Below are positions 27,961-28,320 of a stretch of DNA of 64,000 nucleotides, one piece after another; position 1 is the first letter of the stretch; each line of letters opens with the position of its first letter. The notes under the pieces are model-generated. The model saw only the letters and a program-made list of their open reading frames with translations, made no database searches and was not told the origin of the DNA. This DNA is from Escherichia phage BP9: the sequence record PP488543.1, one strand, 5' to 3'. A program made the translations under genes and the position numbers.

Positions 27961-28320
27961 GTAGTGTCGGCCCTTCATTGGCACTCGCCTACGAGGGGCG
28001 AGATGCCGGGCCTCTATAGTGCACACAATAACAGAAGTGCATACATGCAGGACTGTTAACATGTGTGGGAGCGAAGCGATAGCGCAGGCCAAAGGCCGAG
28101 CACTAATGTGGACCACCGACGAAAGCTTGCCAGCGCCGGAAGGAGTCGGTTGAGAGCCTCCCGCGCGAGTTCGGATAAAGTTTATGTGTGGAAACTGACA
28201 AGAAGGTCCCTAAATCGCTCCACAGCTATATAAACTATACCAAGTAAGGCAATCGCACCAGTTTGATAGAAAAGCTCGTTACAAAGCGATACAGTGAGTT
28301 TTTCTATAACTTGAAGAGGA
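27961..28320 (+). other. GC-rich structured noncoding element (candidate ncRNA or structured leader)
   Basis: About 360 nt with no credible ORF, GC content well above flanks, multiple nested inverted repeats (CGGCCC/GGGCC, CTCGCC/GGCGAG, CACACA/TGTGTG, ACCGAC/GTCGGT). Confidence 0.35.

What the first reader, a model, noticed from the sequence alone, without database searches (positions are those of the whole stretch)
27961..28320. GC-rich, highly structured 360-nt noncoding element upstream of gene 28328
In an AT-biased genome this segment is conspicuously GC-rich, has no credible ORF, and contains several nested complementary segments consistent with a multi-helix RNA. It ends right at the SD of the next gene, so it could be a long structured leader or riboswitch-like element, or a stable RNA comparable to the small stable RNAs in T-even tRNA regions.
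Basis: seen in the sequence. Interest (0 to 1): 0.6.

Follow-up and report, generated by a model that had tools for sequence, protein, structure and literature searches.

The report
Origin-linked structured RNA shared with satellites
The GC-rich stretch is a real, conserved, non-coding folded element, probably an RNA, that sits beside a likely replication origin of an rV5-like E. coli phage and also occurs, with base-pair-preserving changes, in small capsid- and tail-encoding plasmids that look like satellites of such phages.

Summary
Observation confirmed. Window 27965-28327 is GC-rich (54% against about 40%), non-coding and conserved in all ~118 Vequintavirus (rV5-like) genomes. It matches no Rfam family.

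Its core (28062-28167) is a three-helix junction. Helix H3 (28115-20/28145-50) is 100% paired in 20 distinct sequences and occurs in at least seven different complementary versions. H1, H2 and a small inner hairpin also covary.

Homologues exist only in a family of ~13-15 kb circular E. coli "plasmids" and metagenome contigs. These encode capsid, tape-measure and Dit-like baseplate proteins, but I identified no terminase or portal. They are satellite-like.

In the phage and every plasmid lineage examined, the core lies 150-330 nt downstream of lineage-specific iterons. It is next to AT-rich DNA, linked to a lambda-O-like initiator gene, and co-oriented with downstream genes. The phage's cumulative GC-skew minimum is 1.7 kb away.

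The sense strand folds better in 21 of 22 cores, and one-sided changes give G.U 8:2 over A.C. Both favour a sense-strand RNA.

Best reading: a cis-acting structured RNA of an iteron-type origin module. It is not a riboswitch for gene 28328 and not a T4-type stable RNA. The mechanism (primer or R-loop, versus control) is inferred. A single-stranded DNA priming signal remains a serious rival.

The parts
27338..27688 (+). 116-aa winged-helix protein, equivalent to the N-terminal iteron-binding domain of lambda-O-like replication initiators
   Evidence: PHROG 12838 'replication initiation protein', E = 5e-80, with weaker hits to initiator PHROGs 8102 and 428. Pfam HTH_36 and DUF6945, weak. 25% identity (E = 3e-6) to the N-terminus of the plasmid 288-aa O-like/DnaD-like Rep. 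Annotated as 'replication initiation protein' or 'transcriptional regulator' in GenBank records.
27763..27824 (.). Three 19-bp dyad-symmetric iterons, CTGTCCGTnAnnCGGACAC, at 27763-81, 27784-802 and 27806-24 (21-22 bp period)
   Evidence: Read directly from the sequence. Annotated as repeat_region in phages nomo and Alma, the latter with 4 copies of period 21. Replaced by entirely different repeats in the divergent relative L003.
27825..27960 (.). AT-rich stretch (about 32% GC), a candidate DNA-unwinding element that may also hold the promoter
   Evidence: Composition. No sigma70 consensus on the + strand. Not conserved in L003.
27969..28012 (+). P1 hairpin (GGCCC/GGGCC, GGCA/UGCC, CUCGCC/GGCGAG)
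   Evidence: Invariant in the phage clade. Plasmid L005 carries the same hairpin with two double compensatory changes, GUCA/UGAC and CUCUCC/GGAGAG. It is also present as a cassette in L036.
28022..28067 (+). Hairpin 2 (CACACA...UGUGUG). An 18-nt deletion in the rV5 lineage leaves the shorter pairing CACACAUG/CAUGUGUG. Its 3' arm competes with H1.
   Evidence: The outer stem is absent in L003.
28062..28167 (+). Conserved core, a three-helix junction. H1 is 28062-71/28158-67 (three U.G pairs). H2 is 28076-28109 (tip GGCC-AAA-GGCC). H3 is 28115-20/28145-50 and encloses the 24-nt GAAAGCUUGCCAGCGCCG(G/U)AAGGA, which has a small hairpin and a GNRA-type loop.
   Evidence: Covariance-model hits, 135 bits here. 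H3 is 100% paired with 4 of 6 pairs changed on both sides; 0 of 500 shuffles reach this, and slid controls give 36-43% paired. H3 has 3 of 6 double changes in an independent MAFFT alignment. H1 covaries in L037 and L003, and the H2 tip covaries in L037, L038 and L039.
28176..28257 (+). Poorly conserved linker (39 of 82 sites vary within the genus)
28266..28307 (+). Phage-specific 12-bp hairpin (AUAGAAAAGCUC/GAGUUUUUCUAU) just upstream of the Shine-Dalgarno sequence. It contains G.U pairs.
   Evidence: Nearly invariant, even in L003. G.U at 28274/28299 and a C-to-U change giving U.G in phage Aya. Not found in the plasmids.
28314..28906 (+). Shine-Dalgarno sequence (28314-22) and the 192-aa gene of unknown function (28328-28906)
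   Evidence: PHROG 12226, function unknown. No Pfam or PDB match. Found only in Vequintavirus. No similarity to plasmid Rep or to the plasmid 195-aa protein.

Best explanation
The element is the structured, sense-strand component of an iteron-type (lambda-O-like) replication-origin and control module. It is most likely RNA. Vequintavirus phages share this module with a family of 13-15 kb satellite-like plasmids.

The module consists of:
- a winged-helix initiator;
- lineage-specific iterons;
- an AT-rich unwinding stretch;
- the folded element, 150-330 nt downstream of the iterons and always pointing towards the downstream genes.

Proposed action (inferred, not shown): transcription passing rightward through the opened origin produces an RNA whose three-helix core (H1/H2/H3) and flanking hairpins act in cis on initiation. 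It could form or stabilise the primer or R-loop, as ColE1 RNA II does. Alternatively it could be the site through which replication or Rep-operon expression is controlled.

In the phage, the same transcript continues into gene 28328, so the 3' hairpin may additionally tune that gene.

Shown here: conservation, non-coding nature, covarying helices, strand asymmetry, constant linkage to iterons and initiator, and absence from sister genera.

Inferred: that it is transcribed, that the locus is an active origin, and what the RNA does there.
For: 1. Real and conserved. It is 91-100% identical in 118 Vequintavirus records. It is 84% identical in the divergent IMG/VR relative, where the adjacent iteron and AT-rich DNA is unalignable.

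2. Non-coding.

3. Covariation:
- H3 occurs as ACCGAC/GUCGGU, GCUGCC/GGCAGC, GUCCGGA/UCCGGAC, GCCGGA/UCCGGC, CCGUCC/GGACGG, GCAGCC/GGCUGC and GCCGUC/GACGGC.
- H1 changes from UGUGU/GCGCG to UCCGG/CCGGG in L037, and from GGGAG/CUCCC to GGAAG/CUUCC in L003.
- The H2 tip has three versions.
- The inner small hairpin occurs as GCU/AGC, GGC/GCC and GGU/ACC.

4. Strand:
- The sense strand is more stable than its complement in 21 of 22 distinct cores, by a mean of 4.4 kcal/mol.
- One-sided changes in the phage clade give G.U 8 times and A.C twice.
- H1 has three U.G pairs.
- The apical loop varies GGAA/GUAA, both GNRA-type.

5. Context:
- The initiator is O-like.
- Iterons lie upstream of the core in the phage, in L006-type plasmids, and in L037, L038 and L046. 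The iteron sequence differs each time.
- In L038 a 190-bp pure A/T stretch is followed 23 nt later by a core copy.
- The whole-genome cumulative GC skew has its minimum at window ~26.2 kb, where transcription diverges.

6. The core and P1 are the only significant non-coding similarity between the plasmids and the reconstructed whole phage genome.

7. The module (HTH protein, element, 192-aa gene) is absent from three sister genera, whose gene order closes over the site.
Against: - No transcript data exist (literature searches).
- No sigma70-type promoter is detectable just upstream in the phage or the plasmids.
- The GC-skew minimum coincides with a switch of gene orientation, so it is not independent proof of an origin.
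- The phage initiator homologue is only the 116-aa DNA-binding domain, so it could be a plain repressor and the 'iterons' its operators.
- In the plasmids the accessory hairpin cassettes are almost purely Watson-Crick (121 WC, 2 G.U, 3 A.C) and mostly have 3-nt loops (14 of 21). This looks more like DNA hairpins or cruciforms than typical RNA.
- Thermodynamic z-scores of the isolated core are weak, from -0.1 to -3.2.
- The A7 alignment was fitted to the model, so its pair counts lean towards the structure.
Confidence: 0.45

Rival explanations
1. A single-stranded DNA signal rather than an RNA. Once the AT-rich region is opened, the hairpins would form on the displaced sense DNA strand. They would then serve as a helicase- or primase-loading (single-strand initiation) site, as ssiA/ssiB do next to the iterons of IncQ plasmids, or as primosome assembly sites do next to the ColE1 origin.
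For: It shares all the context evidence with the best explanation. The plasmid cassette stems are perfect Watson-Crick pairs of 5-7 bp, mostly with 3-nt loops including GAA. The very stable DNA mini-hairpin motif GCGAAGC occurs at window 28070-76 and in L032 (its stability is from my own knowledge). No promoter was found upstream.
Against: H1 needs three G.T wobbles in 8-10 bp, which would be weak in DNA. Strand asymmetry computed with RNA parameters is consistent across lineages. The GNRA-type loop is kept through a G/U change. In the phage the region is inevitably transcribed if gene 28328 is expressed from upstream.
Confidence: 0.2
2. A trans-acting or stable non-coding RNA, such as a regulator or decoy in the phage-satellite or phage-host relationship. 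It would be made by both the phage and the satellites, and its position next to the origin would be incidental.
For: It is a compact, covarying three-helix core with invariant single-stranded segments (AAUGUGGA, GAGAG, and the 24-nt apical region), which are typical of protein or RNA contact sites. It is shared between a lytic phage and the elements that probably parasitise it. The plasmids carry variable numbers of hairpin cassettes around the core.
Against: No terminator or defined 3' end follows the core. No promoter was found. The fixed position relative to iterons in at least five lineages with unrelated iteron sequences is not explained.
Confidence: 0.17
3. One reading: a long structured 5' leader or riboswitch-like element that controls translation or transcription of gene 28328.
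For: It runs up to the Shine-Dalgarno sequence with no promoter or terminator in between. A highly conserved hairpin lies 7 nt upstream of the Shine-Dalgarno sequence. RNAalifold proposes pairing of 28046-56 with the Shine-Dalgarno region, with one covarying pair but three broken cells.
Against: The conserved core occurs in plasmids that lack any homologue of the 192-aa gene. There it is separated from the next gene by about 300 nt and a sigma70-like promoter. No Rfam leader or riboswitch matches. The part nearest the gene, apart from the last hairpin, is the least conserved.
Confidence: 0.12
4. A DNA packaging (pac) recognition site that satellites copy from their helper.
For: It is the strongest non-coding similarity between the satellites and the phage. 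The terminase large-subunit gene lies about 4 kb downstream.
Against: The closest phage record has a 458-bp terminal direct repeat about 40 kb away from the element. The satellites share a separate 23/24-nt match with the phage just inside that repeat boundary, which is a better pac candidate. Compensatory stem changes are not expected for a duplex DNA protein-binding site.
Confidence: 0.03
5. A small protein-coding gene (rV5 'ORF 78', window 28063-28233, or the open minus-strand frame).
For: It is annotated in some GenBank records. An 84-codon stop-free minus-strand frame is present in most variants, and several indels are multiples of three.
Against: There is no codon periodicity (25/26/29), and the third positions of the long minus-strand frame are the least variable. 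ORF 78 is not kept in the plasmids or in L003. The stems change by paired substitutions that are non-conservative at the protein level.
Confidence: 0.03

Closest known systems
ColE1/pMB1 RNA II (replication primer precursor)
   Same: It is a long, multi-hairpin sense transcript at a replication origin, and its fold is needed for its action in cis. It would explain selection on stems together with a fixed position and orientation at the origin.
   Different: ColE1 has no initiator protein or iterons and is controlled by antisense RNA I. Here an O-like initiator and iterons are present. No antisense promoter or RNA I-like partner was found. There is no sequence or Rfam similarity.
Phage lambda origin (O protein, four dyad-symmetric iterons, AT-rich region, activation by transcription)
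   Same: There is an O-like winged-helix initiator, three to six iterons at 21-23 bp spacing and an adjacent AT-rich stretch. Rightward transcription crosses the region.
   Different: The lambda origin lies inside the O gene and has no conserved folded RNA or DNA domain next to it. The phage protein here is only the DNA-binding domain (116 aa). Origin activity is untested.
IncQ (RSF1010/R1162) oriV with ssiA/ssiB, and primosome assembly sites of ColE1-type plasmids
   Same: The layout is iterons, then AT-rich DNA, then hairpin-forming single-strand initiation signals. Stems are short and perfect.
   Different: Those signals are single hairpins of about 40-70 nt, recognised by RepB' primase or PriA. 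Here the core is a 100-nt three-helix junction with wobble-rich H1 and sense-strand asymmetry, which favours RNA.
Phage N4 early promoters (5-7 bp stem, 3-nt loop DNA hairpins)
   Same: The plasmid cassette hairpins have the same geometry: 5-7 bp perfect stems and 3-nt loops, some of them GAA.
   Different: N4 hairpins carry conserved sequences read by the virion RNA polymerase. Here every hairpin has a different sequence, and I know of no N4-type polymerase in these elements. This comparison rests on my own knowledge.
P4 CI RNA / P1 c4 antisense RNA (Rfam RF01695)
   Same: It is a small structured RNA encoded in the leader of the replication or immunity operon of a satellite or plasmid-like phage.
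   Different: There is no Rfam hit on the phage or the plasmid. The size and fold differ. No target repeats complementary to a loop were identified.

Membership tests
Any Rfam 15 family (4227 models, including riboswitches, leaders, tmRNA, RNase P, 6S, c4, GOLLD/ROOL, HEARO) | Score at or above the family's gathering threshold | tested here: not met
   There are no hits in 27850-28400 beyond chance microRNA or snoRNA matches with E of 0.6 or more. The only hits in the whole window are tRNAs. There are none in the plasmid unit at E <= 0.1.
Riboswitch / cis-regulatory leader of the downstream gene | The conserved aptamer is associated with the same downstream gene class across genomes, with an expression platform at the gene's Shine-Dalgarno sequence or a terminator | tested here: not met
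   The core recurs upstream of unrelated genes in the plasmids, with a promoter in between. No terminator is present. Only the phage-specific 3' hairpin abuts the Shine-Dalgarno sequence.
Riboswitch / cis-regulatory leader of the downstream gene | Binding of a ligand or protein changes the fold | not testable with these tools
   Alternative pairings of UGUGUG exist: with CACACA at 28022-27, or with CGCGCG at 28162-67. This shows only that a switch is possible.
Lambda-type iteron origin | An initiator of the O / DnaD-like winged-helix class is encoded next to the site | tested here: met
   PHROG 12838/8102/428 for the phage protein. PHROG 270/391/186 for the plasmid 288-aa protein. Pairwise E = 3e-6.
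Lambda-type iteron origin | Three or more directly repeated initiator sites at about two helical turns, followed by AT-rich DNA | tested here: met
   Phage: 3 x 19 bp at a 21-22 bp period, then 136 bp at about 32% GC. Plasmids: 4-6 iterons at 22-33 bp spacing. L038 has a 190-bp stretch of pure A/T.
Lambda-type iteron origin | Replication actually starts there | tested here: inconclusive
   The genome-wide cumulative GC-skew minimum is at window ~26.2 kb, but it coincides with the switch of gene orientation. Needs an experiment.
ColE1-type RNA II primer | Initiator-independent origin with antisense RNA I control | tested here: not met
   An initiator and iterons are present. No convincing antisense promoter was found over the core. 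Only weak minus-strand promoter and terminator matches occur in the plasmids, within chance expectation.
ColE1-type RNA II primer | The sense transcript forms a persistent hybrid and is cut by RNase H to prime DNA polymerase I | not testable with these tools
   No data.
Single-strand initiation signal (ssi / primosome assembly site) | A hairpin formed in single-stranded DNA, recognised by primase or PriA, and orientation-specific | tested here: inconclusive
   The orientation is constant, and the cassette stems are perfect Watson-Crick. However, the core shows G.U-dependent sense-strand stability.
T4-type small stable RNAs of the tRNA region | Encoded within the tRNA gene cluster and matured with the tRNAs | tested here: not met
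   The element ends at 28327 and the tRNA cluster begins at 30207. Four ORFs and two sigma70-like promoters lie in between.
Phage pac site | Located at or next to the packaging start or genome terminus | tested here: not met
   The terminal direct repeat of the nearest phage record lies about 40 kb away. A different motif shared with the satellites sits there.

The most novel reading that the evidence does not exclude
The core is an RNA cofactor of a previously undescribed way of firing an iteron-type origin. It would be used both by rV5-like lytic phages and by a large, undescribed family of capsid- and tail-encoding plasmid satellites. The satellites would keep a helper-compatible copy, while each evolves private iterons and initiators. 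This would let them plug into, or compete for, the helper's replication machinery during infection. The phage itself may have captured the whole module from a satellite.
Probability: 0.15. Interest if true: 0.85.

Novelty: new variant of a known kind. Interest (0 to 1): 0.68.

Why it matters
1. It defines a new structured non-coding family. The family is supported by covariation and absent from Rfam. A usable covariance model and clear, testable helices are already in hand.

2. It points to the probable replication origin of the Vequintavirus genus, which includes candidates for phage therapy and biocontrol. As far as the searched literature shows, no origin has been mapped for this genus.

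3. Following it uncovered a widespread set of 13-15 kb E. coli "plasmids". They carry capsid, tape-measure, neck and baseplate genes related to rV5 (45-66% identity), but I identified no terminase or portal. They look like a new class of extrachromosomal phage satellites, and the element is one of only two non-coding signals they share with the phage.

4. If the element proves necessary for replication, it would be a rare case of a conserved RNA (or DNA) fold embedded in an initiator/iteron origin. It would also give a handle on how helper and satellite replication are coupled.

Tried and rejected
- Rfam at gathering and at permissive thresholds, on the phage and on the plasmid: nothing.

- blastn against 5,426 E. 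coli genomes: no chromosomal source for the GC-rich DNA; only the small plasmids match.

- Exact-pattern scans:
  - The 20-mer of the H3 loop in viral, genome and metagenome collections returned one further Vequintavirus contig, two further plasmid-type contigs, the already known divergent relative (L003/L018), and chance hits in GC-rich genomes.
  - A three-anchor gapped pattern in IMG/VR found nothing.

- Protein-coding reading: rejected.

- Idea that the 192-aa gene is the detached C-terminal half of an O-like initiator, or a homologue of the plasmid 195-aa protein: no similarity.

- Homologous element in sister genera (Henunavirus, Mydovirus, Seunavirus): the module is absent and the covariance model finds nothing.

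- A second copy elsewhere in the phage genome, including the second GC-rich stretch at 29490-29705: none at E <= 10.

- pac-site reading: rejected after finding the terminal repeat 40 kb away.

- TGTGTGGG as a genome-wide polar motif in the phage: only 8 of 19 copies fit a polarity flip at the element. Same-composition 8-mers are already 60% co-oriented.

- Resemblance of CCGGAAGGAG to SRP RNA domain IV, and of a plasmid loop TAGCGA to the CS-6 motif of single-strand origins: recalled from memory, not conserved across members, and there is no Rfam support. Dropped.

- Literature searches for rV5 satellites, transcriptomes or non-coding RNAs: nothing relevant.

Full report
**What the window is**

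The region matches 119 phage records at 90-100% identity. All belong to the genus Vequintavirus (rV5-like E. coli myoviruses); the 18 'Campylobacter phage' records among them are flagged UNVERIFIED. The finding lies in a 640-nt gap between two genes:
- a 116-aa helix-turn-helix gene (27338-27688);
- a 192-aa gene of unknown function (28328-28906).

Most GenBank records annotate nothing in the gap. rV5 itself calls a 56-aa 'ORF 78' there.

**Checking the observation**

- GC content reaches 0.545 at 28000-28199, against 0.32 just upstream and about 0.40 in the surrounding genes.
- Only short overlapping ORFs occur. No frame stays open consistently across 13 sequence variants.
- The 80 variable sites fall 25/26/29 on the three phases. 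The neighbouring gene gives 29/13/74. The stretch is therefore non-coding.
- Folding energy is moderately better than shuffles: z = -2.9 on the + strand and -2.5 on the - strand.
- Against the most divergent phage relative (an IMG/VR contig; the downstream protein is 82% identical), conservation starts abruptly at 27967. It continues to the start codon at 84% identity. The DNA immediately upstream is unalignable.

The true 5' edge is about 27965.

**No known family**

Rfam 15 gives only tRNAs in the window and nothing credible on either strand of 27850-28400. blastn finds the element in no phage outside the genus. The two flanking proteins are likewise confined to the genus. In three sister genera of Vequintavirinae, the neighbouring phosphoesterase and RNA-ligase genes are contiguous and the module is missing.

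**Homologues in small plasmids**

A sensitive blastn against E. coli genomes and PLSDB hit no chromosome. It hit several ~13.5 kb circular 'plasmids'; one is assembled as a 39.6-kb trimer.

Their gene content:
- They encode a major capsid protein, a tape-measure protein, a neck or tail-completion protein and a Dit-like baseplate protein.
- Three stretches, including the baseplate and tape-measure genes, are 35-54% identical at protein level to proteins of this window.
- They also encode a 288-306-aa lambda-O-like/DnaD-like initiator.
- I identified no terminase or portal.

A search with the Dit-like protein found 48 homologues, most on contigs of 13-15 kb. I found no description of these elements in the searchable literature. 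Each carries a 2.2-3.3 kb non-coding region.

**Anatomy and covariation**

Within the phage the element reads, from 5' to 3':

| Part | Window coordinates |
|---|---|
| P1 hairpin | 27969-28012 |
| Hairpin 2 | 28022-28067 |
| Core | 28062-28167 |
| Variable linker | 28176-28257 |
| 12-bp hairpin | 28266-28307 |
| Shine-Dalgarno sequence | 28314-28322 |

The core consists of three helices:
- H1: UGUGUGGGAG/CUCCCGCGCG.
- H2: an irregular hairpin tipped by GGCC-AAA-GGCC.
- H3: ACCGAC/GUCGGU, enclosing a 24-nt apical region.

Comparison with the plasmids shows paired changes:
- P1: GGCA/UGCC becomes GUCA/UGAC, and CUCGCC/GGCGAG becomes CUCUCC/GGAGAG.
- H3: it becomes GCUGCC/GGCAGC in most plasmids. 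In CP134895.1 it becomes GUCCGGA/UCCGGAC around a completely different loop.
- In a MAFFT alignment of six sequences, H3 has 3 of 6 pairs changed on both sides and is 100% paired. Slid controls give 36-43% paired.

A covariance model of the core then found weaker but structurally coherent copies in distant satellites whose Dit-like proteins are 49-59% identical (L045, E = 3e-7; L038, 1e-4 and 4e-3; L037, 3e-4; L039, 0.01; L046, 0.02). It found none in the rest of the phage genome or in the sister genera.

These copies add:
- four more H3 versions;
- a covarying H1 in L037 (UCCGG/CCGGG);
- three versions of the H2 tip;
- three versions of a small hairpin inside the H3 loop.

On the 20 distinct aligned sequences, H3 is 100% paired with 4 of 6 pairs doubly changed. 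No shuffle out of 500 reaches the observed covariation. The caveat is that this alignment was fitted to the model.

**Which strand, RNA or DNA**

All copies point the same way as the downstream genes.

Evidence for a sense-strand single strand, and for RNA:
- The sense strand folds better than its complement in 21 of 22 distinct cores, by a mean of 4.4 kcal/mol and by up to 13 kcal/mol in distant members.
- Inside the phage clade, one-sided substitutions at paired positions produce G.U eight times and A.C twice.
- H1 contains three U.G pairs.
- The apical tetraloop alternates between GGAA and GUAA.

Evidence pointing the other way:
- The extra 'cassettes' that surround the core in the plasmids are one to four units. 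The commonest kind has three short hairpins, and each unit is preceded by UGUGUGGG(G).
- Their stems are almost purely Watson-Crick (121 WC, 2 G.U, 3 A.C), and 14 of 21 have 3-nt loops.
- They covary strongly: 3 of 7 pairs are doubly changed in the 7-bp stem. However, they carry no strand information and look as much like DNA hairpins as RNA.

I therefore favour RNA for the core (about two to one) and keep a single-stranded DNA signal as the main rival.

**Context decides the function class**

- The 116-aa phage protein belongs to a PHROG annotated as a replication initiation protein. It aligns with the N-terminal winged helix of the plasmid O-like initiator.
- Between it and the element lie three 19-bp dyad-symmetric repeats at a 21-22 bp period, then 136 bp of about 32% GC.
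- The divergent phage relative and every plasmid lineage have different repeats at the same place: four to six copies at 22-33 bp spacing, 150-330 nt upstream of the core.
- In L038 a 190-bp stretch of pure A/T is followed 23 nt later by a core copy.
- For the reconstructed whole phage genome, the cumulative GC skew has its single minimum at window ~26.2 kb. This is also where gene orientation diverges.

So the constant partner of the element is an iteron/initiator/AT-rich module, not the downstream gene. The plasmids have no homologue of the 192-aa gene. In them, a sigma70-like promoter (TTGACA-17-TAAGAT) lies between the core and the next ORF.

**Packaging excluded**

- The closest phage record carries a 458-bp terminal direct repeat about 40 kb from the element.
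- The plasmids share a separate 23/24-nt motif (TTCTTmTAACAATTCTCAAATATC) with the phage just inside that repeat.
- That motif, not the element, is the natural packaging-signal candidate.
- Apart from two coding matches, the core and P1 are the only significant nucleotide similarity between the plasmids and the phage.

**Conclusion**

It is not a riboswitch-type leader for gene 28328 and not a T4-style stable RNA.

The best-supported reading is a cis-acting structured element, probably an RNA, of a lambda-O-like iteron origin module. It is shared, and evidently exchanged, between rV5-like phages and a family of satellite-like plasmids. L005 and L036 carry the phage-type P1; L036's copies are 90-92% identical to the phage. 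What it does at the origin is inferred only. It might form a primer or R-loop, load the replisome, or exert copy control.

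Noticed in passing
L005, L006, L029-L032, L036-L039, L045-L047 (for example NZ_CP178698.1, NZ_CP043822.1, CP134895.1): A family of 13-15 kb circular E. coli 'plasmids' and metagenome contigs. They encode a major capsid, tape-measure, neck and Dit-like baseplate proteins related to rV5, plus an O-like initiator. I identified no terminase or portal. They are probably undescribed extrachromosomal satellites of rV5-like phages. One record is a head-to-tail trimer (period 13,530 bp).
   Followed up: partly
L044:12374-12831 and L042:1-458 (PV763136.1 ends); plasmid L006:13743-13766: The nearest phage record has a 458-bp terminal direct repeat inside a ~3 kb gene-free region rich in short repeats (TGACA, GTTTACA, CCTGAAGAG). 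The satellites share a 23/24-nt motif, TTCTTmTAACAATTCTCAAATATC, located about 30 nt inside the repeat boundary. This is a candidate shared packaging signal.
   Followed up: partly
Plasmid loci; phage genome: The 8-mer TGTGTGGG occurs 9-11 times per 13.5-kb plasmid, against about 0.4 expected. Its orientation flips at the iterons. In the phage it occurs 19 times, against 7.1 for same-composition 8-mers, and it clusters around the terminal-repeat region. Its function is unknown. In the core it forms the 5' strand of H1.
   Followed up: partly
window 29490-29705: A second GC-rich (51-55%) non-coding stretch, with z = -2.3. It is followed by a sigma70-like promoter (TTGACA-17-TATGAT, 29706-29735) and then gene 29772-30110. 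It has no Rfam hit and is not matched by the core model.
   Followed up: partly
window 29772-30110: A 112-aa protein that begins MADTTKKRRRRGRPLK. This is an AT-hook-like GRP motif that also resembles the N-termini of some small terminase subunits (from memory). PHROG 3330, function unknown. It lies about 2 kb upstream of the terminase large-subunit gene.
   Followed up: no
window 30207-31146: A tRNA cluster: Arg, Ser, Thr, Met and Pro, plus one at 30412-30496 seen only by Rfam (its position corresponds to the tRNA annotated as Tyr in related phage records). ARAGORN also calls an odd 99-nt tRNA with a 4-base anticodon at 30803-30901. Others annotate that one as 'tRNA-OTHER' or an inconsistent Lys.
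   Followed up: no
L021, L022, L025 relative to window 28026-28043: The rV5 lineage has an 18-nt deletion between direct repeats GTGCAyACA. It shortens hairpin 2 but preserves it.
   Followed up: yes
L038:7942-8128: A run of about 190 bp consisting only of A and T, in a satellite's non-coding region, flanked by two copies of the core.
   Followed up: partly
L040/L041 (MT740314.1): The terminase large-subunit gene is annotated in three separate pieces in phage JEP1. This suggests an interrupted gene (intron, intein or homing endonuclease) or an annotation artefact.
   Followed up: no
window 26264-27290 and upstream: An RNA-repair-type gene set lies immediately upstream of the origin-like module: a P-loop polynucleotide-kinase-like ATPase, a metallophosphoesterase, and RNA ligase 1 on the opposite strand.
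   Followed up: no
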